Below are positions 28,939 through 58,652 of a DNA stretch of 64,000 nucleotides, piece by piece. The notes under the pieces are model-generated. The model was given only the letters and a program-made list of their open reading frames with translations, was not told the DNA's origin and did no database searches. How positions within the stretch are numbered: the first letter of the stretch is position 1; every line of letters starts with the position of its first letter. Source of the stretch: Oscillospiraceae bacterium (GTDB lineage: Bacteria > Bacillota > Clostridia > Oscillospirales > CAG-382); the NCBI GenBank assembly GCA_015064895.1, contig SVRI01000012.1:1146-65145 (forward strand), written 5' to 3'. The position numbers and the translations under genes are program-made.

Positions 28939-28965
28939 CCCAAAACAATTAAAACACAAAGTTTT

Positions 28966-28994
28966 GCACACCCGATTTTCGGGTGTGCTTTTTT
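28966..28994 (+). terminator. intrinsic terminator
   Basis: GCACACCCGattttCGGGTGTGC followed by TTTTTT. Confidence 0.8.
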
Positions 28995-29133
28995 GTGCAT
29001 AGTAAATAAAAATGTATACGGAAATTCTAAGGTTTAAAACAGGATAAATGGCGAAAAATACATAAAAAGTTAATAATTTTCGCCTATAATATAAACGTAT
29101 ATTTTTATTTAAATTCAGAAGGAGAAGAATTTT

Positions 29134-34512: not shown

Positions 34513-34531
34513 TTAAATAACTGAGTTTTTT

Positions 34532-34561
34532 GTCCGCATCGAAAGATGCGGACGTTTTTTT
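34532..34561 (+). terminator. intrinsic terminator
   Basis: GTCCGCATCgaaaGATGCGGAC followed by GTTTTTTT. Confidence 0.8.
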
Positions 34562-34569
34562 GTTTTAGC

Positions 34570-34598
34570 TTTACAAAATGATTACTGAGTGATATAAT
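34570..34598 (+). promoter_or_regulatory. sigma-A promoter with extended -10
   Basis: TTTACA, 17-nt spacer ending in TGa, then TATAAT. It is 21 nt upstream of the ATG at 34620. Confidence 0.55.
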
Positions 34599-34619
34599 GA
34601 AAAAAAGAAAGGGGATATA

Positions 34620-37850: not shown

Positions 37851-37853
37851 ATA

Positions 37854-37886
37854 AAATCCCGCACGCTGAGGTGCGGGATTTTTTTG
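37854..37886 (+). terminator. intrinsic terminator
   Basis: AAATCCCGCACgctgagGTGCGGGATTT followed by a T-run. Confidence 0.8.
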
Positions 37887-37944
37887 TATAAATTTCAAGA
37901 GCATAAGAACCATAAAAGTGCTAAAAAAATATGAAAAATGGATA

Positions 37945-37973
37945 TTTACATATTGTGCAAATTGTGATACAAT
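37945..37973 (+). promoter_or_regulatory. sigma-A promoter with extended -10
   Basis: TTTACA, 17-nt spacer ending in TGa, then TACAAT. Same architecture as the promoter at 34570. Confidence 0.5.
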
Positions 37974-38029
37974 GATAGTAATTAAAATTGTGACTTTTTA
38001 ACAAAGTTCATAAAAAAGGAGAATGCTTT

Positions 38030-41000
38030 ATGAAAACCAGAGCTCTCAAAATAGTATCATTTCTTCTGGTAATCTGTATGATTTGCATGGGCATGCCCAT
38101 GACGGCTTTTGCGGTACCTTCTGCTGTAACTGTTGTTGAATCAGCACAGGAAGTGACGGCAAACGATTCCGAAGAAATTGCTACCGGAGAAGCTGCGGCA
38201 GAGACGACACCGCAGATCAAAAACATTATTTACCTCATTCCCGACGGTGCCGGATACGGTTCTTTGGATTTTTCCAATGACGTAAAGCAGGCAGGCGGTT
38301 TTGATGATGCGAAATTCCCCTATAAGACACCTGTAGACGATAGTCCCATGACACTTTTTGACTATCACGCAGGCTCTATGGTTACGCTCAATATTTATAA
38401 TGCCATGACAGACTCGGCTGCTGCCGGCACTGCTCTTTCGACGGGTTATAGGACAGTCAATAACTATCTCGGTCTTGACAGAAGAAAGATGCCCCATGCA
38501 AACCTTACTGAAGCTGCTCAGTCGGTAGGTAAGGCGACGGGTCTTGTTTCTACATATGAATGGCCTCATGCAACACCTGCTTCCTTTGCAGCTCATGCAA
38601 TTCAGAGAACAGACTATGCTGATTTCTACCGTCAGATTGAAAACAAGAATCTTCAGGTAGTTCTCGGTAATGGCTACGGCTCTGTTGCGGCCTACGGTGC
38701 TACAATGCAGACGGCTATTGATAACGGTTATACAATCGTTAAGACAAAGGCAGAGATGGCGGCTGTACAGCCCGGTGATAAAATCTGGGGTAATGTATGC
38801 GAAACAAGCTTTGACTTTGATATTTATAACGGTGCGGATACATCCACTCTTGCCGAAATGACACAGGCGGCGATCACCGCACTTTCCGGTGATGAAGACG
38901 GCTTCTTCCTTATGGTAGAAGGTTCAAAAGTTGATACAGGCGGACACTCCAACAACACAGCACAGATGTCCTCCGACTATATTGCATTTGATGAAGCTTT
39001 CAAGGTTGCGGTAGAATTTGCAAAGTCTAGAACTGATACGGTTGTAGTTGCAGTTCCCGACCACGATACAGGCGGTCTTTACTATGATACACTTGTTGCT
39101 TCCAGTAATCTTGCTACAGCAGTCGCCGAAACACAGCAGGGTAACAACTCTACTCTTGTTACTTGGGAATCCGGCTCTCATACAACACAGGAAGTTCCTT
39201 TCTGGTGCTACTATCCCGAAGGAATTACAGGTATTGAAGGTGCGGCAGAACCCGGTCGTGACTACTATGTTGATGAAAACGGCAACAAGAACCCTGTAAG
39301 AACAGAAAACGTAATTGATAACACGGATATTGCTCCCTGGTGTGCTTCTTTAATGGGCGTTGACCTTGATGAGCTTACAAATAACCTTTTCGTAAATGTT
39401 ACCGATATCGGTCTTTACGATGCGGCAACACAGAAGTTCACCTTTAATAACGGCGATAAGTACGCATATAAGGATCAGGCTGTTTACTATGAAAACGGCG
39501 TAAAGAAAGATATGTTCGGTCAGATGATTGTTATTGAGGAAACAGTTTATGTTCCCCGTGAAATCATCGACGAAGAAGACTGGAACTATGTAACGGAAGA
39601 CTTTGACGGCGTTACGGGTGCAGGTACTGAATCCGACCCATATGTTATCGACGATGCTTGGGACTTTATGGAGTTTACCAATAATGTTGTCGCCGGTGAC
39701 AGCTATGAAGGCAAGTATATCATTCAGGGTGCCGATATTGACCTTTCCAATAAGAACACATACACAGGTATGGGTACAGCTACCTTCAAGGGTAACTATG
39801 ACGGTAGAGGTTATACATTGAATGTTGCAATTTCCGCAACAGGAAGTAATGCCGCAACAGTCTTTGGCGTAAATGAAGGAAGAATTATGAATGTCGGTAT
39901 AACCGGTTCTCTCAGCGCTGAAAATGCACACGCTGCATCTTTTGTTTACAGAAACGGCTACGGAACAATACTTAACTGTTATTCCCTTGCCAATGTTACA
40001 ACTTCCGGCGACGGATATTCTAATGGTCTTATTTTCCAGAACTATGCTTCCATAAATAACTGCTATTTCGGCGGTACTGCAAAGACTGCCTCCACAAGCT
40101 GTAACAGTGAGGGCGAGTTCCTTAATGTATACTATGTTGAAACAGCAGGTTCTCAGATAAATAACGGCACAGGCGTTTCGGCAGAGGTTGCAAAGACAAC
40201 ACTTGCAGATACACTTAATTCCAAGCTTGATGAGCTTATTTCCACCTACGGTCTCGGTGAAGATGCTCTTAATAAGTGGACATATATTGGCGGTATTGAC
40301 TATCCTGTTCTCAAGGTAAAGACACCTGAAGTAACGGGTATTACGGTAACTCCAACAGCGGCAACCGTAAAACGCGGCGAATCCACAACACTCAAACCTA
40401 CCGTTCTCGGTATCTACAATCCTCCGCAGGATGTTGTATGGAATGTAAGCCCCGCAGCCACAAGTAAGGAGACAAAGTTCTATGAAGACGGCTTCTTCAA
40501 GATTGGTGCTGATGAAACTGTTTCTCAGTTCACAATTCAGGTTAAGGCTGCATACGGCGGTGCATATACAGCAACTGCTGTTGTAACTGTTGACCTTGCA
40601 TCTGACCCCGTAGTTAAGGAAGACGGTTCAAGAACTCATCCTTACCTTATTGAAACAGAAGAAGACTTTATCGAATTTACAGAAAATGTAAACAGCGGTA
40701 ACCAGTACAGTAATAAATACTTAAAGCAGACAAGAGACCTTGACCTTGACGGCTATGACGAATATAAGGGCAGATACACAGAAACCTACTTTACAGGTAT
40801 TTACGACGGAGACGGTCATACAATCAATGTAAATATTTATGTTGAACGTGATGAAGATAAGCAGTATGATGATATTTGTCTCTTTGGTTATATTTCAAGT
40901 GCAAGAATTTTGAATCTTGGTGTAACAGGTTCAATCAAGGCACCGGGTTACGTTTCAACATTTGCAAGAAATATGTCTTCGGCTTCACTTATTGCAAACT

Positions 41001-42463
41001 GCTGGAGTACAGTTCATGTAGAATCAATAGCCAAGGGCTTCGGCACACATCCCGGTAACGATGCTTCCGGCTTTGTACGTTCACCCTACGGCGGTGCATT
41101 TGTAAACAGCTACTTTGCAGGTGAGCTTATTTCTCCCGGCGGAACATCTCATCCTCTCGGCGGTTCGGGTTCGGATTATAAGGCAGTTTACTATAACTGT
41201 GCATATCTCGGACAGGTTTCTTTTGATGATGAAGAACAGGCGGAAATTACAGAAGAAGAACTCGAAGGTCTTGCATATAAGTTCAATGCAGGCATAGCAG
41301 AGTCGGCAAAGGTTGCAACAAGCTCCAACTCCAAGGGTTATGTTTATGTTCCTGCAATGTTCCGTGAATGGTTCGATGAAATCGGCGGTCCAAGACACGG
41401 TGCAAGAGATGATGCGGCACGTTTCAATAAAGAATTCAGCGGGGATAAATCCTTTGAAGAAGTTGTAATCGGTTCTGATGTTGAAATCAAGGCAAACGGC
41501 AATGTGATTTCAATCGACAGCCTTACTGTTAAGGAAGACTCGGCTCTCCACCTTGGACAGGGTACATATGTACTCGGAGATGTTACAGGTACAGTAACAG
41601 CATCTCCAAATGCAAACGTACTTGTTACAGGCGCAAATAAGCCCGAGGGGTATGTTGAACTTGATATCGGTACAGCTTCAGGTTCAAGATATGCCGAGGT
41701 TAACGGCTATCAGTACGATATCGTTGAAAACAGCGGTAAGTACGGTGTGATTACCGACAAGAATATGCTTATTCAGGTTGTTGAAAAGCCTGAGGCTTCA
41801 CTCTTTGCCGAAGAAGAATATGAAACAACAGGTACAAAGTACTATTATGTTGATGCTGAAAACGGCACATCCACTGAGCTTACATCACTTGATGGCTATA
41901 TGGCAAACTACAACAAGTATTCTATAAGAATGCCCGACCAAAGATTGAGTAATACGGCACTTCGTTTCAGAGCTCAGATTTCAAAGACATCAAAAGATGA
42001 AACTGACGAGTATGTAATTGATGAATACGGTTATATTATTACTCTTGAAGAAAAGCTCAGTAATAACGACTATTCACAGCTCAACTTTGACTTTACAATT
42101 CCCGGTAAGACAGCATACGTATACGGTGCTGCATATGTAAAGGGAAGCGTAGATAAAGTGTATGGACAAGATGATGAAGTAGCTGAGTTTGCAGCTGCAT
42201 TCCATGGTATTCCTACATTGGCATACGGTAAGAGAATTGTCGCAAAGACATATACAAAGGTAACTGTAAACGGCGAACAGTTTGTACTTTACGGTGAACC
42301 TATGGTAACAAGTGCTTATTCTGTTGCCAAGGAACTCGTAGACAGCGGCTCTGTTTCCGAAAGCGATGAAACTTATGGCTGCATCAAAGATATTATTGAT
42401 GCAACTACAGATGAAGGCTTCGGTAATGAAGCGGGCGGCGATACAGGAGACCTTTGGAACTGA
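38030..42463 (+). CDS. giant secreted mosaic protein D (1477 aa): alkaline phosphatase, two GLUG-type modules, Big_2, and the C-terminal modules shared with A and B
   Basis: RBS AAAGGAG. Signal peptide ending MTAFA. Phosphatase motifs LIPDGAGYG, TDSAAAGTA, EGSKVDTGGH, VPDHDTGG and GSHT. GLUG-type openers SDPYVIDDAWDFMEFT... and THPYLIETEEDFIEFT.... The C-terminal roughly 330 aa is collinear with the tails of A and B. Confidence 0.85.
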   Translation: MKTRALKIVSFLLVICMICMGMPMTAFAVPSAVTVVESAQEVTANDSEEIATGEAAAETTPQIKNIIYLIPDGAGYGSLDFSNDVKQAGGFDDAKFPYKTPVDDSPMTLFDYHAGSMVTLNIYNAMTDSAAAGTALSTGYRTVNNYLGLDRRKMPHANLTEAAQSVGKATGLVSTYEWPHATPASFAAHAIQRTDYADFYRQIENKNLQVVLGNGYGSVAAYGATMQTAIDNGYTIVKTKAEMAAVQPGDKIWGNVCETSFDFDIYNGADTSTLAEMTQAAITALSGDEDGFFLMVEGSKVDTGGHSNNTAQMSSDYIAFDEAFKVAVEFAKSRTDTVVVAVPDHDTGGLYYDTLVASSNLATAVAETQQGNNSTLVTWESGSHTTQEVPFWCYYPEGITGIEGAAEPGRDYYVDENGNKNPVRTENVIDNTDIAPWCASLMGVDLDELTNNLFVNVTDIGLYDAATQKFTFNNGDKYAYKDQAVYYENGVKKDMFGQMIVIEETVYVPREIIDEEDWNYVTEDFDGVTGAGTESDPYVIDDAWDFMEFTNNVVAGDSYEGKYIIQGADIDLSNKNTYTGMGTATFKGNYDGRGYTLNVAISATGSNAATVFGVNEGRIMNVGITGSLSAENAHAASFVYRNGYGTILNCYSLANVTTSGDGYSNGLIFQNYASINNCYFGGTAKTASTSCNSEGEFLNVYYVETAGSQINNGTGVSAEVAKTTLADTLNSKLDELISTYGLGEDALNKWTYIGGIDYPVLKVKTPEVTGITVTPTAATVKRGESTTLKPTVLGIYNPPQDVVWNVSPAATSKETKFYEDGFFKIGADETVSQFTIQVKAAYGGAYTATAVVTVDLASDPVVKEDGSRTHPYLIETEEDFIEFTENVNSGNQYSNKYLKQTRDLDLDGYDEYKGRYTETYFTGIYDGDGHTINVNIYVERDEDKQYDDICLFGYISSARILNLGVTGSIKAPGYVSTFARNMSSASLIANCWSTVHVESIAKGFGTHPGNDASGFVRSPYGGAFVNSYFAGELISPGGTSHPLGGSGSDYKAVYYNCAYLGQVSFDDEEQAEITEEELEGLAYKFNAGIAESAKVATSSNSKGYVYVPAMFREWFDEIGGPRHGARDDAARFNKEFSGDKSFEEVVIGSDVEIKANGNVISIDSLTVKEDSALHLGQGTYVLGDVTGTVTASPNANVLVTGANKPEGYVELDIGTASGSRYAEVNGYQYDIVENSGKYGVITDKNMLIQVVEKPEASLFAEEEYETTGTKYYYVDAENGTSTELTSLDGYMANYNKYSIRMPDQRLSNTALRFRAQISKTSKDETDEYVIDEYGYIITLEEKLSNNDYSQLNFDFTIPGKTAYVYGAAYVKGSVDKVYGQDDEVAEFAAAFHGIPTLAYGKRIVAKTYTKVTVNGEQFVLYGEPMVTSAYSVAKELVDSGSVSESDETYGCIKDIIDATTDEGFGNEAGGDTGDLWN

Positions 42464-42483
42464 TATAGTCAGAATTAAAATTT

Positions 42484-42516
42484 TCCGCACTCACACGGTG
42501 GGTGCGGAGTTTTTTT
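42484..42516 (+). terminator. intrinsic terminator
   Basis: TCCGCAC...GTGCGGA stem followed by GTTTTTTT. Confidence 0.75.
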
Positions 42517-42547: not shown

Positions 42548-42576
42548 TTGCAAAATTCGTAGAAAGATGATATGAT
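42548..42576 (+). promoter_or_regulatory. sigma-A promoter with extended -10
   Basis: TTGCAA, 17-nt spacer ending in TGa, then TATGAT. It is 57 nt upstream of the ATG at 42634, which has an AAGGAG RBS. Confidence 0.5.
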
Positions 42577-42633: not shown

Positions 42634-45600
42634 ATGAATAACGGTTTAAAGCCGTCAAAGGTAACAGTAAACATTGAAACAATGCCGTATTTTTCGGCAT
42701 CAATAGCGGATATGCGCATATCACCCGTAATAAGGTTGGTACTGGGCACGCCGGAGGCTGCAAAAAGCGGCAGACTTGAAATCAGTATAGTTGGTAAATG
42801 CAGGGATGTTGAATTTATACGCCGTGCAGATTTTGTCAAGGAAAATTTTAATACAGAGTCTTATAATTTAAAGAATACTCTTTCCTGTAATATCGATTTT
42901 GACTTTGACAGCTTTGAATATGACAATGCTTTTCTTAACAGCCTTGAAGAAGAAACAATGGCTGAAATCTATGTTCTCGTAAACTATTGCGGAACAGAAT
43001 ATGTTACCAAATCCCATATATCCCTTTTGCCTGCCGATACATGGCTCGGACTTGACGGTGAGCCCTCCGTTATTGCTTCTTTTGTAAAAGAAGATGAAAC
43101 TGTATGCGGCATATGTGACTCCTTGTGTGAAGATGAAAAAATCAGCTATAGCGTAAATTCCAAAAAGACCATAACAGCAGCAATCAAAGAGCTTTATAAA
43201 AGACTCAAAAATTGTAATATTATTTATACGCGTCCTGTCGGCTATGCTGCCAATGTCAAGCAGCAGATAAGAAGTGCAGATGTGATTTTCGGTGGCAGCA
43301 GCGTGCTTGCCACACCCCTTGAAATTGCAACCGTGTTTTCTTCATGCGCAAGAAAAATCGGTTTCGACACCTCACTTTTGTTTGTCAGAGGAAAAAAAGG
43401 TGAAATCTCGGTGCTTTGCGGCATTTACTTGGTAAAGAGCCCTGTAAATGTTCCTGTTTATGAAGATGCAGAAAGAATTAAGGCTATGCTTGACGCAGGT
43501 GACATGCTTGTTGTTGACCCGTCTGTTTTTGCTGCAGCACAGAACACGTCTCTTGTAATGGCGCTTGAACAGGCAGCAGAGTATTTTACAAAGAATCTCA
43601 GCAGCCTTGTATGCATGGTTGATATAGAATGTGCTAAAAGAAGCACCGGCGAAGCCGCTTATGACGAATTGGCATCACTTCCCGTAAAAAACGCCATGGC
43701 AAGAGTATACTCGTCTCTTGTGTCTGCACCCGTGATGCAGGTGCTTTCAGGTAAAAAGCGTGAAGAAATAGAAGAGATTCCGCTTTTGCTGGCTGATTTT
43801 GATTCGGTATTCAGAAACAATAATGACAGATTCAAACTTTTGCCGCTTGATTTTAATGTTGACCTTACCGATTTTGCGGCGATTGATAAAGATTTTTCTT
43901 CCATACTTACAATGTCATCACCCAAGGCGGGACAGCATTTCAGTCAAAATGAACTTGTAAGAATAAGAGAAAGATTTTCAAGACTCAAGGAAAAGATTAC
44001 CCGTGACGGTGAAATTACCACATCCTATTCCGAAGAGACGCTTTACAGATACGCGTCTGCCATGACCTTTGGCAAAAATAAAAGAGAACCTTATTTTGCC
44101 TTCGGATATGTAAAAATAACCGATAAGCTTACTGAAAGTGTAAGCTTTGCTCCTATTTGCCTTGTCAGGGCAAACCTTGAGTATGAAAACGGTAACTTCT
44201 ATGTAAATCAGATTGGTAACCCCATTGTCAATAAGGTGTTTATAAGAAATGCATTAAAGGATTCTGCACTTGGCTATGATTCCTTTATGAAATCTCTAAT
44301 GCCAACCGATAAAACAGAAATATTCGACATGTTTGAAAATATCCGTGTTGCACTTATGGAAACGGACGACAGACATGTTTATGAAATAGTAAGGGAAGCA
44401 CATATCGTAAATTTAGAAATTGATGACTATGTGCTCTGGTCAAATCTTGCACTTCTCAGAAAGAAGATGTCGGGCTCTGAAAATGTGTCCCGTGTGTTTG
44501 AGGATAAATTTGCTCAAGATGAGCAACTTGACCTTTCATATTCACCGTCAATGCCTTTGTATTCTCAGGCAATGAAGGCGGTAGTCAATGAAACAAGCAT
44601 GGTTGTTGAGGGTGCGTTTACTGCCGAAAAAGAAAATGTGCTTGTTGCACAGGCAGCAAAGAATATATTTGCGGGAAAGAGCACACTTGTTGTCACCGAT
44701 GACATGGAAATGTCGGAATATGTTTACGGCTTGCTTTGCGAAAAGAACTTTTCTGATGTTGCATTTGTGCTTGATGAAAGCGGAAAAGCGGAAGGTGCCG
44801 TAAAGAAAATTGCAGATAATATTGAAAAGTATAATAAGGAAGAAGATAACGGCATTGCTTTTGTAAATCCTGAGCTTTTGGAAGCAAATAAGGTTCTTCT
44901 TGATTATACAGACCGTATAAACAGAAAGCATAGCATGGGTATGTCGCTCAAGGAGGCGGAAATAGCATATCTTTCTGCAAGTGCAGGTACTGTTGAAAAC
45001 GATGATATTCCCATTGATAAAAAGATTTTCGAGTATGCCGATGAAAGCAAGCTTGATAACATATTCGAAAGGGTAGGAGAGCTTATAACAATAGCGGGAA
45101 ATCTCTGTAAAAAGAGTGGACTTCCCACACATACACCCCTTAAGAACCATCCTCTTTTCAATACAAATCCCCGTGATGATATTGATGAAGAAGTAAAGGC
45201 TCAAATCAGAACTGCAATAGAAAACACACTTCCCGTGCTTTCCGAATACAGAGATGTATTCCTTGATGTAAATGAAATACTCGGCTTTGATGAAAGAGAC
45301 CTTGATTCCTTCTATAAGCTGGAAAAACTCAATGATTTGTATAAACTGGTTCTCACTGCAAGAGATATTGACATACCCGAAAAGTTTGTTGAAAGCGATA
45401 TTGCAGATTTCTCAAAGAGTAAGCGTTTTGAAACAGAAAATAAAAAGCGTATGGAAGCAATCGAGTTTAAGCTCAATTTCTTCAGCCATGAAATTTTTGA
45501 AGATGTTGAAACACTTCTTCGAGGAGATGTTTATGACGAGGAAGAAGAAAAGGGCTTCCTCAAGAAGTTTATGCTTAAGAAAAACAGTCATGAAACGCTT

Positions 45601-47589
45601 ATGCAGTACGTTATCCCCGAAAGAAAATCGGATTTTCAGCAGCATAAGATTTCTGACATATATAAGCTTTTGTATGAATATAAATCCTGCGTTGTTGCAT
45701 TAAGACAAAGCGGAAACAATGTAAATGACGGTGAAGACAGCCTCAAGCTTGCAAAGGTATCCGAAAAGGCGGCATATATTGTCGGTGAAATAAGCTGTGC
45801 TTCAAGCGACAGAAAAAAACTTCTTTCCAATGTTTTCAGACTTATTTCGGTAATACCTGTAGACGCCGCTCTGGCAAGAAAGATAACGGTAGTAAGAGCA
45901 AGACTTGCTGAGCTTTATTCCGGAGAAAACAGCGTAACAAGCTTCCTGTCTGCTTCTATGGGTATAGATTTCAATAATCTTACCTTTGAAAACGGTATTC
46001 TCAGCTTTGACGGTATTGGAAAGTACCTTGAAGAAATCGAAAAGAAACTTGAACTTACCGAACTTTGGCTCATGTGGCTTAAAAAGGCAAATGAGGCAAG
46101 AGATTTTGTTCCTGGTTTTGTAAAATATCTTGAAGAATACGGTGCAGGCAAGAATGTTGACAGAATATTTGCCAAGAGCCTTCTTTCTCCCGTTGCGGAA
46201 TGTGTCAGAAACGCAAGCTTTGACGGTTTTTCGACAGAAAAACTCGGAAAGGCAAAGGATAAATATATTTCTCTTCTTAAGAAGGCATGTGAAACGTCAT
46301 ATAATAATACCTTTGAGGCTTATAAGAAGTCTGTAAAGCATATGGCTGAAACCAATGTGGTAAAGGCTGAGGATTTTGCCAATGTTTCCTTCAAGGATTT
46401 GATGTCCGGTAATGCAGGACTTGTTCAGAAGGTTCTTCCTGTTGTTATAGTTACAAAGAATGTGCTTTCTGAGGTTATGCCCTTTGAAGCAAAGTTCGAT
46501 ACTGTATGTATAATTGACAATAAGGATAACGGCTTTTCAATGCTCCCATCCCTTGCTTACGGTACAAAGGGTGTTGTCTTTAATATGTCAAGAACCGAAA
46601 GAAGCAGCCTTTGCGAAAGATTTGCAAAGCATGTGCCTTGCTATGATGTTTGTACTATTACCGATAATAAAGATGCCTGCCTTTTTGCATGGCTCAATGA
46701 ACTTGTTTTTGACAGTGACTGCATGGCCCCGGGCTTTAATGAAAAGAGCAATGTAGAGCTTGTTAGGATGAATGGCTCGTATGAACGGACAATCGGAAGG
46801 ACAAATAAGACCGAGGCTGAACTTGCTATAGTCAAGGCAACGGGTCTTTTGCAGGATGAAACAAAGAATGTTGTTATTACTGCATTTACAAAGGAACAGT
46901 GCACATCAATTGAAAAGCTTGTTTATATACTCAGTAAAAAGAACAAAATTCTTGATAAGGCAAGAGGCGAAGGCAGAGTATCGGTATGTACGCCTGACAG
47001 ACTCTATATGAAAAAGTATAATTGCCTTGTTGTATGTACATGCTTTGGTGCCGATAAGGACGGAAGAATCGGCTGGGATTTCGGTTACGGCTCTGTAAAC
47101 GGAAATCAAACAATTCCCGAAGCATATATAAGCATTGCTGACAGACTTACTGAAAAGACATATATTCTTTCAAGCCTTAATGTCAAGGATGCAAGATTCA
47201 TGAGACGTACAGGCAATAATACATCTGTGTTCAACAGCTTTTGTGAAATACTTGCCGACGGAAGGATTCCTCTGTGCATTGACCGTACAGAGCAAGTTAA
47301 AGAAGACAGCATTCTTTGCGATATTATTGCATGTATCGAACCCGGCAAATCCAGAGGCATGCTGTGTGAAGGCAAACACCCGATGAAGTTTGCACTTCGC
47401 GGTATACAGGATAATGATTTGTACATTCTTTGTGATAATGACATGGGTGTTTGTATGCATGACGAATTACTTATCAAGGAATACCTTGAAAGTGAAGGTA
47501 AGACGGTTACAACTCTTACACCAATGTCACTTGTAGGAGAAAAACTCTCTGAAACAATAAAGAGTCTTGTAGCCAAAACCGATAAATAA
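42634..47589 (+). CDS. 1651-aa cytoplasmic DUF4011 / SF1 (Upf1-DNA2-like) helicase-like protein with degenerate ATPase motifs
   Basis: No signal peptide. DUF4011-like core YFAFGYVKITDKL...FAPICLVRANLEYENGNFYVNQIGNPIVNKVF. The helicase layout is conserved but motif I reads PLYSQAMKAV...VVEGAFTAEKE (expected GPPGTGK[ST]). Motif II reads FDTVCIIDNKDN (expected DEASQ). Motif V-like is VVITAFTKEQ...VSVCTPDRLYMKKYNCLVVCT. The tail is nuclease-fold-like (LYILCDND...). Confidence 0.75.
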   Translation: MNNGLKPSKVTVNIETMPYFSASIADMRISPVIRLVLGTPEAAKSGRLEISIVGKCRDVEFIRRADFVKENFNTESYNLKNTLSCNIDFDFDSFEYDNAFLNSLEEETMAEIYVLVNYCGTEYVTKSHISLLPADTWLGLDGEPSVIASFVKEDETVCGICDSLCEDEKISYSVNSKKTITAAIKELYKRLKNCNIIYTRPVGYAANVKQQIRSADVIFGGSSVLATPLEIATVFSSCARKIGFDTSLLFVRGKKGEISVLCGIYLVKSPVNVPVYEDAERIKAMLDAGDMLVVDPSVFAAAQNTSLVMALEQAAEYFTKNLSSLVCMVDIECAKRSTGEAAYDELASLPVKNAMARVYSSLVSAPVMQVLSGKKREEIEEIPLLLADFDSVFRNNNDRFKLLPLDFNVDLTDFAAIDKDFSSILTMSSPKAGQHFSQNELVRIRERFSRLKEKITRDGEITTSYSEETLYRYASAMTFGKNKREPYFAFGYVKITDKLTESVSFAPICLVRANLEYENGNFYVNQIGNPIVNKVFIRNALKDSALGYDSFMKSLMPTDKTEIFDMFENIRVALMETDDRHVYEIVREAHIVNLEIDDYVLWSNLALLRKKMSGSENVSRVFEDKFAQDEQLDLSYSPSMPLYSQAMKAVVNETSMVVEGAFTAEKENVLVAQAAKNIFAGKSTLVVTDDMEMSEYVYGLLCEKNFSDVAFVLDESGKAEGAVKKIADNIEKYNKEEDNGIAFVNPELLEANKVLLDYTDRINRKHSMGMSLKEAEIAYLSASAGTVENDDIPIDKKIFEYADESKLDNIFERVGELITIAGNLCKKSGLPTHTPLKNHPLFNTNPRDDIDEEVKAQIRTAIENTLPVLSEYRDVFLDVNEILGFDERDLDSFYKLEKLNDLYKLVLTARDIDIPEKFVESDIADFSKSKRFETENKKRMEAIEFKLNFFSHEIFEDVETLLRGDVYDEEEEKGFLKKFMLKKNSHETLMQYVIPERKSDFQQHKISDIYKLLYEYKSCVVALRQSGNNVNDGEDSLKLAKVSEKAAYIVGEISCASSDRKKLLSNVFRLISVIPVDAALARKITVVRARLAELYSGENSVTSFLSASMGIDFNNLTFENGILSFDGIGKYLEEIEKKLELTELWLMWLKKANEARDFVPGFVKYLEEYGAGKNVDRIFAKSLLSPVAECVRNASFDGFSTEKLGKAKDKYISLLKKACETSYNNTFEAYKKSVKHMAETNVVKAEDFANVSFKDLMSGNAGLVQKVLPVVIVTKNVLSEVMPFEAKFDTVCIIDNKDNGFSMLPSLAYGTKGVVFNMSRTERSSLCERFAKHVPCYDVCTITDNKDACLFAWLNELVFDSDCMAPGFNEKSNVELVRMNGSYERTIGRTNKTEAELAIVKATGLLQDETKNVVITAFTKEQCTSIEKLVYILSKKNKILDKARGEGRVSVCTPDRLYMKKYNCLVVCTCFGADKDGRIGWDFGYGSVNGNQTIPEAYISIADRLTEKTYILSSLNVKDARFMRRTGNNTSVFNSFCEILADGRIPLCIDRTEQVKEDSILCDIIACIEPGKSRGMLCEGKHPMKFALRGIQDNDLYILCDNDMGVCMHDELLIKEYLESEGKTVTTLTPMSLVGEKLSETIKSLVAKTDK

Positions 47590-47609
47590 CAGTGGGAGGA
47601 AATGGCGTT

Positions 47610-48632
47610 ATGCCGACATTTTCCAAAAATTATATAGGTATAGATTTGGGTACTGCAAACACACTTGTGTGTACACCCGAAAAAGGCATAATTATAAGAG
47701 AACCGTCATATGTGGCATATGATATACGAACCGAGGAAATAATAGCTATTGGCAGCGGGGCAAAAAACCTTGTTGGCAAGACCCCTAATAATATATCGGT
47801 TGTCAGACCTCTTCGTGACGGGGTTATATCCGATTTTGAGCTTACCCTTGCCATGCTCAGCTATTTTGTGCGTCAGGCAATGAATAAGCTTTTGTTTGCA
47901 CGGCCCAAGGTTGTTGTGTGTATTCCTTACGGTGTATCTCAGGTTGAACACAGTGCACTCGAAAATGCACTTTTTGAAGTGGGCGTATCGAGTGTTGCAC
48001 TTGTTGAAGAACCGGTTGCTGCAGCAATCGGAGCAGGCCTTGCTTTTAAAAATCCGGTAGGAAATATGATTGTTGATATTGGCGGGGGTACAACCGAGGT
48101 TGCGGTGGTAACAGCGGGTGGAGTTGCCGTGTCGAAATCTCTGAGAGTTGCAGGGGATGAACTCAATGAAGCAATCGTTGAGTATATCAGAAAGAAATTC
48201 AATGTGGTTGTCGGTGAGATAACTGCTGAGGATATAAAAAAAGAAATAGGCTCTGCACATAAGAGCTCAGATGTGGGAATGCTTGAGGTAAGAGGCAGAA
48301 ATCTTATAACGGGACTTCCGTCGGTATTCAATATATATTCGTCTGAAATCAGAGTTGCAATGAAGCCGGTGCTTAACCAGATTGTAGAGGTTATCAAATC
48401 AACACTTGAGATAACACCTCCCGAACTTTGTGCAGATATACATACAGGTGGCATTACAATCTCGGGCGGAGGAGCACTTCTTTCGGGTATGAGTACCCTC
48501 ATAAGTGAAAACACTAAACTGGAGGTTTATATTGCAAGACGGCCTCTTGACTGTGTTATTGACGGTATTCATAAAATTATGACAAAGGAAGGCTATGAGT
48601 CTGTTTTGTCGGTTGCAAATCATAAAAAGTGA
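47610..48632 (+). CDS. mreB: MreB/Mbl-family actin-like protein
   Basis: IGIDLGTANTLV, RPLRDGVISDF, EEPVAAAIGAGL, IVDIGGGTTEVAV and ISGGGALLSGM are all present. The ATG at 47610 lies 9 nt after GGGAGGA and 20 nt after the stop of the upstream 1651-aa gene. No mreC or mreD in the window. Confidence 0.9.
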   Translation: MPTFSKNYIGIDLGTANTLVCTPEKGIIIREPSYVAYDIRTEEIIAIGSGAKNLVGKTPNNISVVRPLRDGVISDFELTLAMLSYFVRQAMNKLLFARPKVVVCIPYGVSQVEHSALENALFEVGVSSVALVEEPVAAAIGAGLAFKNPVGNMIVDIGGGTTEVAVVTAGGVAVSKSLRVAGDELNEAIVEYIRKKFNVVVGEITAEDIKKEIGSAHKSSDVGMLEVRGRNLITGLPSVFNIYSSEIRVAMKPVLNQIVEVIKSTLEITPPELCADIHTGGITISGGGALLSGMSTLISENTKLEVYIARRPLDCVIDGIHKIMTKEGYESVLSVANHKK

Positions 48633-48669: not shown

Positions 48670-50331
48670 ATGAAAGAAACACTTACATCACTTACATTCA
48701 AAAACGGTGATAATGAAGCAAAAAAGAGACCCGTTTTCTGTATCGTAATGGACGGTATCGGTCTTGGCAAGGATAATATATCCAATGCAATTAAAAATTC
48801 AAGAACACCTACTCTTGATATGCTTATGTCAAAGTACCCCACACTTAAGCTCAAGGCTCACGGTACAGCGGTAGGTCTTCCTTCCGATGATGACATGGGA
48901 AACAGTGAAGTCGGTCATAACGCAATCGGTGCCGGTCAGGTTTTTGCACAGGGCGCAAAGCTTGTTTCAAACTCTATTGAATCAGGACTTATGTTTAATT
49001 CAAATTCCTGGAAGGAAATCGCTTCCGTTAAAGATACAGGTAAGACACTTCACTTTATCGGTCTTTTCTCTGACGGTAATGTTCACTCTCATATCGATCA
49101 CCTTAAGGCAATGCTCAGTCAGGCTAAGGTTGAAGGTATCAAGAATGTAAGAGTTCATATCCTCATCGACGGCAGAGATGTTGGCGAAACATCAGCTCTT
49201 GAATATATCAATCCCTTTGAAGAATTCCTTGCATCTCTTAACGGCGACGGCTTCGAAGCTAAAATTGCATCCGGCGGCGGCAGAATGAATATTACAATGG
49301 ACAGATACGAAGCTGACTGGTCCATGGTAGAACGCGGCTGGAAGACACACGTACTCGGTGAAGGCAGACAGTTCTCGTCTGCAAAGGAAGCTGTTGAAAC
49401 TTATAGAAGCGAACTCGGCTGTATCGACCAGGATCTTCCTCCTTTTGTTATTGCTGAAAACGGTACACCCGTCGGCACAATTGAAGACGGCGACAGCGTA
49501 GTATTCTATAACTTCAGAGGCGACAGAGCTATTGAAATTTCCAAGGCATTTGACGATAAGGACTTCGACAAGTTCGACAGAGTCAGAGTTCCTGCTGTTA
49601 CCTATGCAGGCATGCTCGAATATGACGGCGACCTTCACATTCCTTCAAGATACCTCGTATCTCCTCCCGAAATCAAGGGTACAATGGGTGAATACCTTGC
49701 AAATACAGGCGTTACACAGTATGCCCTCAGTGAAACACAGAAGTTCGGTCATGTAACATACTTCTGGAACGGTAACAAGAGCGGTAAGTTTGATGAAAAT
49801 ACAGAAACTTACGAAGAAATTAAGTCTGACGTAATTCCCTTCGAACAGAGACCCTGGATGAAGTGTGCTGAAATTACAGACAGACTTATTGAAGTAGCAA
49901 ATGAGGGCAAGTACAGATTTATGCGTGTAAACTTCCCCAACGGCGACATGGTCGGTCATACAGGTAACTACCTTGCAACAGTTGTTTCTGTTGAAGCACT
50001 CGACCTTCAGCTTGCAAGAATTTTGGAGGTTGTAGATAAGCTCGGCGGTGTAGCACTCATTACAGCCGACCACGGTAACGCAGATGAAATGTGCGAAATT
50101 GATAAGAAGACAGGAGAACCCAAGCTTGATAAAGAGGGCAATATGAAGTCCAAGACAAGCCATACATTAAATCCCGTTCCCTGTATTATCTACGATAATA
50201 AGTTTGCCGATAACTATAAGGTTATCGAAAAAGATACCTACGGTCTTTCCAATATCGCAGCAACTCTTGTTAATCTTATGGGTTACAAGGCTCCCGAAAT
50301 TTGGGATGAAAGTATGATTGAAGTCCTCTAA
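48670..50331 (+). CDS. gpmI: 2,3-bisphosphoglycerate-independent phosphoglycerate mutase
   Basis: [22 protein letters not shown] (catalytic Ser), TADHGNAD and other iPGM metal-site motifs. 553 aa. Confidence 0.9.
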
Positions 50332-50352
50332 TTTATATAAAGGATGTGTAGT

Positions 50353-52026
50353 ATGAAAAACATTATTAAGTTTTTTGCAGTTTCAATATTATTGTTTTCT
50401 CTTTCTGTAGTGGCTTTGGCTCTTCCGAGTGCCGTTGTTACTACAGACACGGCAGAAGAAATTGTTGCAAATGAAGGTTTTAACGCAAATCTTTCTGCAG
50501 ACGGAACAGAGCAGTCGCCCTATGTAATTAGTTCGGCAATTGATTTTAACAATTTTGCAGGACTAATTAAAAGCAATAATGCCGTATACGGGACGAAGTA
50601 TTATAAACTGACAAATAATATTGACTTCAAGGGCTACAGCCTTATACCTTTCGGAACAATGAACAGCCCCTTCAAGGGAACTCTTGACGGTAACGGATTT
50701 GCCTTGTTGAATACCCCCATTGCCGACACTGAGTATTCGGGTGTTATAGGTTATATTACTCAGGGTGCTGTTAAAAATCTTCGTGTATCCTATGCTGACA
50801 CACAGAATCTCTCTAAGTTTTCAAAGCTTAAGTATTTTGGCGGTATAGTCGGTTACGGTAAGGTTGCATCTTCAAAGACAGTTGATATTATCGGCTGTGA
50901 AACCGAGGGAAATATATCTGTTAATACTTCGCAGGCTGCTTACTTTGGCGGCATTGTGGGTTATTTGAAATGTGAAAGCGGAAACGGCTATATAAATGAC
51001 TGTGTTTCCAATATGCCTCTGAACATTACGGCAGACGGAAACGGATATGTTGGAGGTTTTGGCGGATATCTGTATTCCGGCTCAAATAAAGACTGCTATG
51101 TGACAAACTGTGTCAGCTTTGGTGATGTGTTTTTTGAGACAACGCTGAACGAAGCGACTGTTGGCGGTTTTGCGGCATATACCAATAAAGACGAGCCTGG
51201 TTGGTCAGGTTGGGCTGGAGAGGATGCTGAGCTTGCGGCATCATACAGCAATTTCCAGAATTGTGTTTCAATAGGCAGCGTCAGCGGTAAAGCCAAAAAC
51301 GAGGCAGATGGCGGCGGATTTATCGGATATGCGGATGGCGATGGAACTCTGAGTGTTGTCGGCTGCTATAATAATAACGATTGTTCTGTCAGTCTTCAGG
51401 CAACGTCTGTCAATAATACAGAGATCGGAGAAGTAAAAACAACCGAAAAAGAAAACCTTCTCAAAAAAGAGTTTTATCAAAATCTTTCTTTTGACTTTGA
51501 TAACAGCTGGTACTTTTCCTCGTCGGGACTTGGACTCAGAGGTGTGGCAAAGTCCCACGGTGCAGGTGAAACCCATAGCGAAAAGGACGTAAGACTTAAT
51601 TCCAACCCTGGTCTTCGTTTCCGTGCAACAATTGAAGTTTTAAAGCGTGACTACTGCTTCGAATACGGTTTTATTATTGCAAAGAAAGACGAGCTTGGTA
51701 CACAGGAACTGACTTTTGATTATACAGGTAGAAAAGTTTCCGGTGTTGCTTTTGACAGTACAACAGATAAGTTTGTTGACAAGGATGACACAACCCTTGT
51801 TATTTCGGGTGTTGTCACTAATATTCCCGAGGAACACTATGACGAAGTGCTTGTTGCACGTACATACGTTAAATTTATAAGCGGCGGCGAAACTGTAATT
51901 GTTTACAGCGATCCGCAGACCTCAAGTATCAATCTTTCGGCACAGACCGTAAGAGACAGCGAAAGCTATGAATATCTTACCGATGAGCAGAAGGAAATAC
52001 TTGAATCAATGCTTCCCGAAGCATAA
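50353..52026 (+). CDS. secreted GLUG-motif protein E (557 aa) with the shared C-terminal module
   Basis: Signal peptide ending VVALA, then the LPSAVVTTDTAEE motif. Module opener QSPYVISSAIDFNNFA...YYKLTNNIDF...FKGTLDGNGFAL. Repeated GG[IF][VGA]GY GLUG motifs. The tail GLRFRATIE...EYGFIIAKK...ARTYVKF...VYSDP is homologous to the tails of A, B and D. It starts 21 nt after the gpmI stop. Confidence 0.85.
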   Translation: MKNIIKFFAVSILLFSLSVVALALPSAVVTTDTAEEIVANEGFNANLSADGTEQSPYVISSAIDFNNFAGLIKSNNAVYGTKYYKLTNNIDFKGYSLIPFGTMNSPFKGTLDGNGFALLNTPIADTEYSGVIGYITQGAVKNLRVSYADTQNLSKFSKLKYFGGIVGYGKVASSKTVDIIGCETEGNISVNTSQAAYFGGIVGYLKCESGNGYINDCVSNMPLNITADGNGYVGGFGGYLYSGSNKDCYVTNCVSFGDVFFETTLNEATVGGFAAYTNKDEPGWSGWAGEDAELAASYSNFQNCVSIGSVSGKAKNEADGGGFIGYADGDGTLSVVGCYNNNDCSVSLQATSVNNTEIGEVKTTEKENLLKKEFYQNLSFDFDNSWYFSSSGLGLRGVAKSHGAGETHSEKDVRLNSNPGLRFRATIEVLKRDYCFEYGFIIAKKDELGTQELTFDYTGRKVSGVAFDSTTDKFVDKDDTTLVISGVVTNIPEEHYDEVLVARTYVKFISGGETVIVYSDPQTSSINLSAQTVRDSESYEYLTDEQKEILESMLPEA

Positions 52027-52037
52027 AGGGCATAATC

Positions 52038-52070
52038 AAAACTCCCGCAGATTTCTGCGGGAGTTTTTTG
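52038..52070 (+). terminator. intrinsic terminator
   Basis: AAACTCCCGCAGatttCTGCGGGAGTTT followed by TTTG. It is the first clear terminator after 42516. Confidence 0.8.
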
Positions 52071-52193
52071 TTGTAAAAGGAAGGGCAGTTTACATGCTTT
52101 TTTTTGCGGTTTACTAAACTCTACACACATTCGGTTTACATTTTTTCCATTGTATGTTATACTAAACATGAAAACAACAAAAGGAGAATGCAT

Positions 52194-52598
52194 ATGGCAG
52201 CTAAACAGACAAATAAAACGATGGGTGAAATGATAAGCTTTCTTCGTAAGGAAAAAGGTATGACGCAAAAAGAAATTGCTGATAAGTTATTTATAACTGA
52301 CAAAGCGGTTTCAAAATGGGAAAGGGATATATCATGCCCAGATACTGCTATAATGCCAAAACTTTGTGAGATACTCGGAGTTTCTGCTGAAGTGCTTTTG
52401 AGTTGCAAGTCTTCTCAGATTGAAAAGTGTTTTCAGAAATATTTTGTATTTAAAACCATACTCAAAGCAATTGCATTTTCCTTTGGAATTGTGACAGCAA
52501 TTTTTGGGTTGCTGGGATTGATTCCTGAAAATGTTGGTTTTGCTTTTTTAGGTATAGGACTTGCCTGTATAGGTTTGCTTCTTTTGTTAATGGATTGA
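52194..52598 (+). CDS. membrane-tethered XRE-family HTH regulator
   Basis: HTH_3 pattern MISFLRKEKGMTQKEIADKLFITDKAVSKWERDISCPD, followed by two hydrophobic helices. The ATG at 52194 lies 7 nt after AAGGAG. Confidence 0.8.
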   Translation: MAAKQTNKTMGEMISFLRKEKGMTQKEIADKLFITDKAVSKWERDISCPDTAIMPKLCEILGVSAEVLLSCKSSQIEKCFQKYFVFKTILKAIAFSFGIVTAIFGLLGLIPENVGFAFLGIGLACIGLLLLLMD

Positions 52599-52621
52599 TG
52601 TTTCAGGAAGGGCGTGCTACT

Positions 52622-58500: not shown

Positions 58501-58577
58501 GGCGGAATAGCTCAGCTGGCTAGAGCATCCGGTTCATACCCGGCAGGTCGTTGGTTCAAATCCGACTTCCGCTACCA
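58501..58577 (+). tRNA. elongator tRNA-Met (CAT), CCA encoded
   Basis: GGCGGAATAGCTCAGCTGGCTAGAGC...TTCATAC anticodon loop...GGTTCAAATCC T-arm...CGCTACCA. The G1-U72 pair resembles the Bacillus elongator tRNA-Met. tRNA-Ile2 (lysidine) cannot be formally excluded by eye. Confidence 0.85.
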
Positions 58578-58652
58578 GGCCCGTTGGTCAAGCGGTTAAG
58601 ACACGGCCCTTTCACGGCTGTAACATGGGTTCGATTCCCGTACGGGTCACCA
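58578..58652 (+). tRNA. tRNA-Glu (TTC), CCA encoded
   Basis: GGCCCGTTGGTCAAGCGGTTAAGACACGGCCCTTTCACGGCTGTAACATGGGTTCGATTCCCGTACGGGTCACCA. It directly abuts the tRNA-Met. Confidence 0.9.

What the first reader, a model, noticed from the sequence alone, without database searches (positions are those of the whole stretch)
42634..47589. Giant DUF4011/SF1-helicase-like protein whose ATPase motifs are all replaced
The 1651-aa cytoplasmic protein keeps the full layout of the DUF4011 + Upf1/DNA2-like SF1 helicase + C-terminal nuclease-fold family.
- It has the DUF4011 core YFAFGYVKI...FAPICLVRANLEYENGNFYVNQIGNPIVNKVF.
- It has the pre-motif-I PLYSQAMKAV.
- There is a long insertion between motif I and motif II.
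- The motif V/VI region is present.

The catalytic positions themselves are substituted:
- Walker A reads G-A-F-T-A-E-K-E (nt 44611-44634), where the family has GPPGTGK[ST].
- Walker B/motif II reads IID-N-KDN (D-N at 46516-46521) instead of DEASQ.
- The GDxxQLPP motif is replaced by FNMSRTE.
- The TVDxFQGxExD motif is replaced by CTPDRLYMKKYN.
- The nuclease-like tail has ILCDND where relatives have IE.DG.

The ORF is intact for almost 5 kb, has its own promoter and RBS, and is not a pseudogene. A likely explanation is that a helicase was repurposed as a non-enzymatic scaffold or sensor. The N-terminal roughly 470 aa has no motif I can name.
Basis: partly seen in the sequence, partly recalled or inferred. 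Interest (0 to 1): 0.78.

Follow-up and report, generated by a model that had tools for sequence, protein, structure and literature searches.

The report
Dead defence helicase paired with MreB
This 1651-residue protein is a full-length but catalytically dead descendant of the anti-phage helicase-nuclease ProA, kept under strong selection in uncultured gut Clostridia and always encoded immediately upstream of an MreB actin gene, which suggests that an immune enzyme was converted into a non-enzymatic partner of the bacterial cytoskeleton.

Summary
Pfam and PDB sequence searches see no helicase. An AlphaFold model of residues 600-1651 matches only Upf1-like SF1B helicases (Dna2, UPF1, IGHMBP2, Aquarius; probability 1.0).

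A profile-profile alignment shows end-to-end homology (probability 100%, E=2.6e-69) to genuine ProA, an NCBIfam 'anti-phage protein'. ProA's domains are DUF4011, a split AAA_11, AAA_12, an MTES_1575 nuclease and DUF3320.

The degeneracy is shared by a whole clade that separates from ProA with 100/100 bootstrap support. dN/dS is 0.05 in every domain, so the gene is not decaying.

New finding: in all 44 evaluable contigs, across five deep branches, the gene is followed within -6 to +143 nt by an MreB gene. Genuine ProA genes are not. The flanks are housekeeping genes.

Best reading: a domesticated, non-enzymatic ProA derivative that works with an MreB paralogue. The biochemical role is inferred, not shown.

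The parts
42483..42509 (+). Intrinsic terminator of the upstream gene; marks the 5' boundary of the operon
   Evidence: 12-bp stem with 7 G-C pairs followed by a T-run
42548..42576 (+). Promoter-like site (TTGCAA, 17 nt, TATGAT, with a TG extension). An AGGAG RBS lies about 10 nt before the ATG.
   Evidence: Consensus scan and direct reading of the sequence. This is a consensus match only.
42634..47589 (+). Pseudo-ProA gene, 1651 aa
42634..43653 (+). Residues 1-340: Ig-like beta-sandwich plus transglutaminase-like domain, homologous to ProA's N-terminus. ProA's invariant Cys is replaced by Thr227 (nt 43312-43314) and ProA's His is lost.
   Evidence: NCBIfam ProA match at residues 88-337; model with pLDDT 87; Foldseek match to transglutaminase 3, probability 0.87; column table; weak Pfam Transglut_core and DUF553 hits on ProA N-termini
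44074..44553 (+). Residues 481-640: DUF4011-like module (YFAFGYVKI...FAPICLV...NKVF)
   Evidence: hhalign places it on ProA's DUF4011 region. Pfam's own DUF4011 model does not detect it.
44554..44793 (+). Residues 641-720: first part of RecA-like domain 1A. The Walker A relic G660-A-F-T-A-E-K666-E is at nt 44611-44634. The motif Ia block GKSTLVVTDD is also here.
44794..46434 (+). Residues 721-1267: all-helical insertion of about 550 aa between motifs Ia and II. ProA has it too.
   Evidence: Secondary structure of the model; split AAA_11 in ProA
46435..47223 (+). Residues 1268-1530: remainder of domain 1A plus RecA-like domain 2A. The Walker B relic FDTVCIID-N has D1295-N1296 at nt 46516-46521. 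Motif III is deleted (FNMSRTE, nt 46579-46599). Motif V is replaced (CTPDRLYMKKYN, nt 46987-47022). Motif VI is degenerate.
47224..47589 (+). Residues 1531-1651: MTES_1575/Vsr-like nuclease-fold tail. The first acidic residue aligns to a gap. The position two residues before D1601 is hydrophobic. D1601, H1609 and D1610 are conserved (ILCDND is nt 47425-47442). There is no DUF3320 tail.
47610..48632 (+). MreB-family actin with intact nucleotide-binding motifs (DLGTANT, DIGGGTTE, GGGALL). It is the invariant downstream partner.
   Evidence: Pfam MreB_Mbl 410 bits; NCBIfam MreB 417 bits; sequence; synteny
48670..50331 (+). 2,3-bisphosphoglycerate-independent phosphoglycerate mutase. The catalytic Ser and metal-binding motifs look intact. 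It is linked to the pair only in the target clade and branch B.
50344..52026 (+). Secreted protein with GGxxGY (GLUG-like) repeats; fourth gene of the operon in some lineages
52038..52067 (+). Intrinsic terminator; marks the 3' boundary of the operon
   Evidence: 13-bp stem with 7 G-C pairs followed by a T-run

Best explanation
The gene encodes a 'pseudo-ProA'. It descends from the single-protein anti-phage helicase-nuclease ProA, whose modules are an Ig-like and transglutaminase-like N-terminus, DUF4011, an Upf1-like SF1B helicase with a long helical insertion, and an MTES_1575 nuclease. The target keeps all of these folds but has lost the catalytic residues of all three enzymatic modules, and it lacks the DUF3320 tail.

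It is co-transcribed with an MreB-family actin. In some lineages the two genes overlap, which suggests translational coupling. The protein most likely acts as a non-enzymatic adaptor, scaffold or regulator of that MreB paralogue, in a housekeeping (cell-envelope or chromosome-organisation) role, and no longer as an immune enzyme.

Shown here: homology to ProA, fold, family-wide loss of motifs, purifying selection, invariant gene pairing, core-genome context.

Inferred: lack of ATPase or nuclease activity, physical interaction with MreB, and the cellular process served. Retained nucleic-acid binding by the helicase or DUF4011 folds, which could tether filaments to DNA or RNA, is speculation.
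For: 1. Homology and fold.
- hhalign against ProA gives probability 100%, E=2.6e-69 over 1516 columns.
- Foldseek finds only Upf1-like SF1B helicases.
- The ProA comparators are genuine: 1914-2240 bits against a cut-off of 1500, with the full Pfam architecture.

2. Catalytic loss. Compared with ProA's invariant motifs, the target clade and 23 further representatives all lack the transglutaminase-like Cys and His, the Walker B Glu, and motifs III, V and VI. In the target clade position 1296 is never Glu in 34 sequences.

3. Selection. dN/dS is 0.052 overall and 0.024-0.065 in each domain, against 0.034 for the adjacent MreB.

4. Single origin. The split between ProA and all degenerate proteins has 100/100 bootstrap support.

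5. MreB linkage.
- In one search, 44 loci plus the window have MreB on the same strand, -6 to +143 nt after the stop codon.
- L052 and L053 show the same.
- The loci cover five branches, and their other neighbours differ (iPGM, TsaD or serC downstream; FtsK/BacA, DnaB/FtsH, fab genes or surface proteins upstream).
- Two genuine ProA loci have no MreB.

6. Vertical co-divergence. As identity of the giant protein falls from 61% to 28%, MreB identity falls from 85% to 64% and iPGM identity from 98% to 80%.

7. Operon structure. The unit is bounded by two strong terminators.
Against: - No experiment was possible, so loss of activity is inferred from motifs only.
- K666, D1289 and D1295 are invariant, and basal members keep GxxGxGK[KEM] loops. 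Nucleotide binding, or even slow hydrolysis, cannot be excluded.
- D1601, H1609 and D1610 in the nuclease-fold tail are conserved and could form a variant metal site.
- Gene adjacency does not prove physical or functional interaction.
- I could not determine whether the linked MreB is the genome's only MreB or a paralogue. No mreC or mreD follows it.
- The giant protein evolves much faster than MreB or iPGM (35% versus 70% and 84% identity), which would also fit a conflict-driven (defence) role.
- All genomes are MAGs of uncultured organisms.
Confidence: 0.6

Rival explanations
1. It is still an immune module. The dead ProA derivative would act as a sensor, decoy or guard that monitors the linked MreB or is activated by phage factors, with MreB polymerisation or its disruption as the output. 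Some phages are known to inhibit MreB; that point rests on my own knowledge and was not tested here.
For: The parent family is annotated as anti-phage (NF058533) and is related to Hhe (PMC11232893 lists Hhe as a DUF4011 single-gene defence system). The giant protein diverges fast relative to its neighbours.
Against: The locus lies among housekeeping genes, and no other defence genes or mobile-element genes are nearby. PADLOC finds nothing. The pattern is one of vertical co-divergence with MreB and iPGM. All effector-type catalytic sites are lost. dN/dS is a uniform 0.05 with no fast-evolving domain.
Confidence: 0.18
2. It is an active NTPase or translocase with a non-canonical site. The invariant K666 and D1295 (and the glycine-rich loops of basal members) would still bind and hydrolyse nucleotide.
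For: K666, D1289 and D1295 are invariant and G660 is present in 33 of 34 sequences. Loops such as GPAGTGKK and GPRGSGKM occur in basal branches.
Against: The target clade lacks the second P-loop Gly and the Ser/Thr. The Walker B Glu is absent in every member. Motif III is deleted. Motif V is replaced. The motif VI arginines are not conserved. Neither Pfam nor PDB profiles recognise a P-loop.
Confidence: 0.1
3. The MreB adjacency is a historical accident, meaning an operon inherited vertically, and pseudo-ProA has an unrelated structural role.
For: All carriers belong to related uncultured gut Clostridia, so shared ancestry could preserve gene order.
Against: Everything around the pair has been reshuffled across five deep branches, yet the pair itself is never split in 44 contigs. 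Several lineages have overlapping stop and start codons. MreB identity falls to 48%, which indicates long divergence times.
Confidence: 0.12
4. It is a decaying gene or an annotation artefact.
For: One orthologue (L027) carries a frameshifting net 11-nt gap.
Against: dN/dS is 0.052. More than 60 full-length homologue clusters of about 1570-1750 aa exist. The AF2 models are confident. The L027 reading frame continues cleanly after the lesion, and the 98.8%-identical L022 gene is intact.
Confidence: 0.01

Closest known systems
ProA (NCBIfam NF058533, 'anti-phage protein ProA', about 1900-2250 aa)
   Same: End-to-end homology through the nuclease domain (hhalign probability 100%, E=2.6e-69). The order of modules is the same: Ig-like and transglutaminase-like N-terminus, DUF4011, SF1B helicase with a helical insertion of about 450-550 aa, and an MTES_1575-type nuclease fold. 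The GK[ST] block at motif Ia and the NG.YDR...RTN..EA block are also shared.
   Different: The target scores 135 bits against a cut-off of 1500. It lacks the transglutaminase-like Cys and His, a functional Walker A, the Walker B Glu, motifs III, V and VI, two of the three nuclease acidic positions, and the whole DUF3320 tail. It is core-genomic and always paired with MreB, whereas ProA stands alone in variable contexts. I could not find ProA's published mechanism in the paper library.
Hhe (NF042953; DUF4011 helicase plus Vsr-like nuclease single-gene defence system)
   Same: It belongs to the same DUF4011 / SF1B / MTES_1575 / DUF3320 superfamily. ProA proteins hit the Hhe model at about 740-830 bits.
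   Different: The target itself does not hit the Hhe model at E<=0.1. As far as I could see, Hhe lacks the ProA-type N-terminal module, and it is enzymatically intact.
Upf1-like SF1B helicases (Dna2, UPF1, IGHMBP2, Aquarius, Sen1/SETX, ZNFX1, nsp13)
   Same: The two-RecA-domain fold is the same, and these are the best and only significant PDB structural matches.
   Different: Sequence identity is only 10-16%. The ATPase motifs are absent. The accessory domains differ. The insertion within domain 1A is very large.
Transglutaminase-like cysteine-protease fold (Pfam Transglut_core and DUF553; human transglutaminase 3 beta-sandwich plus core)
   Same: The N-terminal 340 residues resemble a beta-sandwich followed by a transglutaminase core (Foldseek probability 0.8-0.87). 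ProA N-termini give weak Pfam transglutaminase-like hits and carry the Cys and His.
   Different: The match is weak (E about 3e-3, low TM-score). In the target the nucleophile Cys is Thr227 and the His is absent.

Membership tests
ProA (NF058533 equivalog) | Whole-protein HMM score at or above the curated cut-off of 1500 bits | tested here: not met
   135.3 bits, E=1.6e-39, best stretch residues 88-337. Genuine ProA proteins score 1914-2240 bits.
ProA (NF058533 equivalog) | Collinear domain architecture: N-terminal module, DUF4011, split AAA_11, AAA_12, MTES_1575, DUF3320 | tested here: inconclusive
   hhalign aligns family columns 32-1636 with ProA columns 2-1672 of 1960, so everything up to the nuclease fold is present. 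The DUF3320 tail (about 250-300 aa) is absent.
ProA (NF058533 equivalog) | Intact catalytic motifs: transglutaminase-like Cys/His, GPPGTGKS, DEASQ, GDPxQLPP, QGDERD, SRAR, and the nuclease D...xCDG | tested here: not met
   All are replaced or deleted in the target and in the whole degenerate clade.
ProA (NF058533 equivalog) | Confers anti-phage protection | not testable with these tools
   This needs phage challenge experiments.
Upf1-like SF1B helicase | Tandem RecA-like domains 1A and 2A with Upf1-like topology | tested here: met
   There are 45 PDB matches at E<1e-3, all SF1B helicases, at probability 1.00, obtained with a model of pLDDT 86.
Upf1-like SF1B helicase | Walker A GxxxxGK[ST] and Walker B DE | tested here: not met
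   The target has GAFTAEKE and D-N. No conserved Walker A exists elsewhere. Position 1296 is never Glu in 34 sequences.
Upf1-like SF1B helicase | ATP-dependent 5'-3' translocation or unwinding | not testable with these tools
   This needs biochemistry.
DUF4011 (PF13195) | Match to the Pfam model at or above its gathering score | tested here: not met
   No hit at E<=1.
DUF4011 (PF13195) | Homology of the region to DUF4011 as found in genuine members | tested here: met
   hhalign aligns target residues 470-600 with the ProA segment that Pfam calls DUF4011 (residues 384-555 of P0065).
MTES_1575 / Vsr-like restriction-endonuclease fold | Conserved acidic residues (D in FK[IV]D; the position two residues before CDG; D of CDG) | tested here: not met
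   The first Asp aligns to a gap. The position two residues before D1601 is hydrophobic. Only D1601 is kept. H1609 and D1610 are conserved, so a variant site cannot be excluded.
MreB-associated proteins (functional class, not a sequence family) | Physical or functional interaction with MreB | not testable with these tools
   Only invariant gene adjacency was shown.

The most novel reading that the evidence does not exclude
An anti-phage helicase-nuclease (ProA) was domesticated once, in an ancestor of a large group of uncultured gut Clostridia. It became an obligate, catalytically inert partner of an MreB actin. That would make it a new kind of bacterial cytoskeleton accessory protein, for example one that tethers or regulates MreB filaments on nucleic acid or at the envelope. 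It would also be a clear case of an immune protein being converted into core cell biology.
Probability: 0.4. Interest if true: 0.82.

Novelty: new variant of a known kind. Interest (0 to 1): 0.68.

Why it matters
Pseudoenzymes derived from defence proteins are rarely documented in bacteria. Here all three catalytic centres of a giant immune enzyme are lost, yet about 1650 codons remain under selection as strong as on MreB itself.

The invariant pairing with an MreB gene, across lineages in which MreB identity has fallen to 48%, gives a concrete and testable hypothesis for an unannotated protein family ('hypothetical protein', no Pfam domain). The carriers are abundant but uncultured gut Clostridia.

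If the partnership is real, it adds a new accessory factor to the MreB cytoskeleton and shows a route from immunity to housekeeping. If the pair is instead a defence module, it would be a new architecture that uses an actin homologue.

The case also shows that ordinary profile searches miss such relatives. Structure prediction and profile-profile comparison were needed to detect the relationship.

Tried and rejected
- Pfam on the target at E<=1 gave only noise: PIN-TPR-GreABC and PhyH, both below cut-off.
- PADLOC found nothing.
- phmmer, and a family profile, against PDB sequences found nothing relevant.
- A profile of ProA's N-terminal domain against PDB found nothing.
- One homologous-protein search with the N-terminal 620 aa was wasted. 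It returned two close fragments.
- Eight literature searches for ProA, ProB, Hhe, DUF4011 and MreB-linked helicase-like proteins found no description of ProA's mechanism and none of this pairing. 'ProA' collides with the proline-biosynthesis gene name.
- A sporadic Walker-A-like string in the target (ACIEPGKS, residues 1566-1573) was rejected. It is not conserved in any homologue and does not lie in a strand-loop-helix context.
- The conserved GK[ST] at residues 681-683 was considered as an alternative P-loop and rejected. It aligns with ProA's motif Ia block GKTVLFVAEK.
- iPGM was considered as part of a functional module and rejected. It is absent from branches C and D and from L053, and it looks like a normal glycolytic enzyme.
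- The first NJ tree attempts failed, once on the time limit and once because the Kimura distance gave NaNs. The tree was redone with Poisson distances.
- Rfam found no regulatory RNA in the operon.
Full report
**1. The observation**

The ORF at 42634-47589 (+) is intact and encodes 1651 aa.

- Pfam reports no DUF4011, AAA_11, AAA_12 or DUF3320 even at E<=1.
- PADLOC reports nothing.
- Neither the protein nor a 34-sequence family profile hits any helicase among PDB sequences.

The only lead was a sub-threshold NCBIfam match to 'anti-phage protein ProA' (NF058533): 135 bits against a cut-off of 1500, covering residues 88-337.

**2. The fold**

I predicted two halves of the protein, using an alignment of 34 homologues.

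*Residues 600-1651* (pLDDT 86.4, pTM 0.71). This model gave 45 PDB matches at E<1e-3. Every one is an Upf1-like SF1B helicase: Dna2, UPF1, IGHMBP2, Aquarius, Sen1/SETX, ZNFX1 and coronavirus nsp13, at probability 1.00.
- The 'Walker A relic' lies between strand 656-659 and helix 663-679.
- The 'Walker B relic' lies at the end of strand 1288-1295.
- An all-helical insertion of about 550 residues (721-1267) separates them.

*Residues 1-620* (pLDDT 86.9, pTM 0.80). This model starts with an Ig-like beta-sandwich followed by a domain whose best PDB match is the sandwich-plus-core of transglutaminase 3. The match is weak (E about 3e-3, probability 0.8-0.87).

**3. The parent family**

An exhaustive profile search with the N-terminal 620 residues found 1055 cluster representatives at E<=1e-3.

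The proteins of about 1900-2250 aa among them are genuine ProA. They score 1914-2240 bits on NF058533. Their Pfam architecture is DUF4011, AAA_11 split by an insertion of about 450 aa, AAA_12, MTES_1575 (a restriction-endonuclease fold) and DUF3320.

hhalign of the target family against 12 ProA proteins gives probability 100%, E=2.6e-69 over 1516 aligned columns. It runs from the N-terminus into the nuclease fold.

ProA also hits the model for Hhe, the DUF4011 single-gene defence system. Hhe is listed as such in PMC11232893. I could not find any paper describing ProA's mechanism. Its 'anti-phage' label therefore rests on the NCBIfam description alone.

**4. The catalytic columns**

In the profile-profile alignment and a 39-sequence MAFFT alignment, ProA's invariant signatures correspond to the target as follows.

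| Module or motif | ProA | Target |
|---|---|---|
| Transglutaminase-like Cys | GTCLD | ATPLE (Thr227, invariant) |
| Transglutaminase-like His | GHAF | lost |
| Motif I | GPPGTGKS | GAFTAEKE |
| Motif II | FDEASQ | IIDNKDN (N1296 in place of Glu) |
| Motif III | VGDPxQLPP | FN-MS (mostly deleted) |
| Motif V | NVQGDERDV | DRLYMKKYN |
| Motif VI | VSRAR | ADRLT (not conserved) |
| Nuclease, first Asp | FK[IV]D | aligned to a gap |
| Nuclease, second site | x-CDG | L-CDN (only D1601 kept) |

The DUF3320 tail is absent.

Within the target clade of 34 sequences:
- K666, D1289, D1295 and D1601 are invariant.
- G660 is present in 33 of 34 sequences.
- Position 1296 is N, D, S, K, R, T or Q, and never E.
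- No GxxxxGK[ST] is conserved anywhere else.

The conserved GK[ST] at residues 681-683 is ProA's motif Ia block, not a P-loop.

All three enzymatic modules of ProA are therefore degenerate.

**5. Not a one-off and not decay**

The same losses occur in 23 further cluster representatives of 1567-1746 aa. A few basal ones keep glycine-rich loops such as GPAGTGKK, GPRGSGKM and GEVGTGKE, while still lacking the Walker B Glu and motifs III, V and VI.

In a neighbour-joining tree (1522 columns, Poisson distances), the split between ProA and all degenerate proteins has 100/100 bootstrap support. So do the target clade and branches B, C and D.

I compared the window gene with its 95%-identical orthologue (L052). 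dN/dS is 0.052 at dS=0.44, and ranges from 0.024 to 0.065 across the seven segments tested. These include the dead helicase and nuclease parts. The adjacent MreB gives 0.034.

One orthologue (L027) has a frameshifting net 11-nt gap relative to a 98.8%-identical intact gene, and its frame continues cleanly afterwards. This is an isolated lesion or an assembly error.

**6. Genomic context: the new finding**

In the window the gene is the first of a unit bounded by strong intrinsic terminators at 42483-42509 and 52038-52067. The unit contains:
- pseudo-ProA;
- MreB (47610-48632; 410 bits to MreB_Mbl, with intact nucleotide-binding motifs);
- a normal-looking iPGM;
- a secreted protein with GLUG-like repeats.

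I fetched loci for homologues across the whole degenerate clade and searched them with tblastn using the window's MreB.
- All 44 loci, plus the window, carry MreB on the same strand, starting -6 to +143 nt after the giant gene's stop codon. Four of these loci are second fetches of the same contig.
- L052 and L053 show the same arrangement.
- The frameshifted L027 also has MreB about 43 nt after the true end of the gene.
- That makes 44 distinct contigs with the pair. No evaluable contig lacks it.

The pair persists while everything around it changes.
- Downstream genes: iPGM in the target clade and branch B, TsaD in branches C and D, and serC/serA in L053.
- Upstream genes: FtsK/BacA, DnaB/L9/FtsH/TilS, fab genes, a penicillin-binding-type peptidase, or giant surface proteins.
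- These are housekeeping contexts. No defence or mobile-element genes are present.
- In branch D the genes overlap by a few nucleotides, which suggests translational coupling.

Two genuine ProA genes stand alone in unrelated contexts with no MreB.

Identities fall together. As the giant protein goes from 61% to 28% identity, MreB goes from 85% to 64% and iPGM from 98% to 80%. This indicates vertical inheritance, with the giant protein evolving fastest.

All carriers are MAGs labelled as uncultured Eubacteriales, Oscillospiraceae or Clostridia, from human, ruminant and other animal guts.

**7. Interpretation**

The best-supported explanation is a ProA derivative domesticated once. It kept its folds, lost its chemistry, and became functionally tied to an MreB-family actin.

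I commit to a non-enzymatic adaptor, scaffold or regulator of that MreB, serving a housekeeping role (confidence about 0.6).
- Shown: homology, fold, motif loss, selection, pairing and context.
- Inferred: lack of activity, physical interaction with MreB, and the process served.

The rivals, in order of likelihood, are:
- a still-immune sensor or guard module that uses MreB (0.18);
- historical linkage without a functional connection (0.12);
- a non-canonical active NTPase (0.10);
- gene decay (0.01).

The invariant K666 and D1295, and the glycine-rich loops of basal members, leave nucleotide binding without hydrolysis as an open possibility.

**8. Verdict**

The protein fails the membership tests for ProA, for Pfam DUF4011, and for an active SF1B helicase. 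It is nevertheless unambiguously a homologue of all three. I therefore classify it as a new variant of a known kind: a pseudoenzyme offshoot of the ProA/Hhe superfamily.

The obligate MreB pairing appears to be undescribed and raises the interest of the finding. The absence of any functional data limits it.

Noticed in passing
window 24067-42463 (+): Four consecutive giant ORFs of 1623, 1792, 1076 and 1477 aa lie directly upstream. Two carry Big_2 plus Listeria-Bacteroides repeat (Flg_new) domains. Two carry an N-terminal alkaline-phosphatase domain followed by about 700-1100 aa with no annotation. The same kinds of genes precede the homologue in L006.
   Followed up: no
window 50344-52026 (+): This gene encodes a secreted protein (N-terminal signal peptide) with repeated GGxxGY, GLUG-like motifs and no Pfam or NCBIfam hit. 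It is the last gene before the operon terminator. Counterparts of about 552-567 aa sit in the same position in L003, L005 and L006.
   Followed up: partly
window 52104-54016 (+): A small HTH_3 protein (RstR- or antitoxin-like, 164 aa) has a stop codon that overlaps the start of an unannotated 473-aa ORF. This could be a two-gene regulatory or toxin-antitoxin-like unit.
   Followed up: no
window 58501-58652 (+): Adjacent tRNA-Met(CAT) and tRNA-Glu(TTC) genes. These are the only Rfam matches in the window.
   Followed up: yes
L027 about 6000-6060 (reindeer gut MAG, CAJOMW010000015.1): This orthologue of branch-B pseudo-ProA carries a net 11-nt gap relative to the 98.8%-identical intact gene in L022. 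The gap shifts the frame, and the downstream frame has no further stops. It is either an assembly error or a very recent lesion.
   Followed up: partly
P0052, P0061, P0062, P0074, P0105, P0175, P0180 (motif I column; loci L023 and L053): Basal or other branches of the degenerate clade keep glycine-rich GxxGxGK[K/E/M] loops although they lack the Walker B Glu and motifs III, V and VI. This suggests stepwise loss, and possibly nucleotide binding without hydrolysis.
   Followed up: partly
ProA proteins P0065, P0089, P0141, P0170 and others, residues about 90-340: Genuine ProA carries an N-terminal Ig-like plus transglutaminase-like domain with an invariant Cys and a nearly invariant His. Pfam does not annotate it above threshold (weak Transglut_core and DUF553 hits only). 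ProA may therefore have a third, protease-like or transglutaminase-like activity.
   Followed up: partly
window 47592-48632 and the partner MreB genes in all loci: The linked MreB is never followed by mreC or mreD, and its identity falls to 48-51% in branch C. It may be a dedicated paralogue and not the elongasome MreB. I could not check the rest of the genomes.
   Followed up: no
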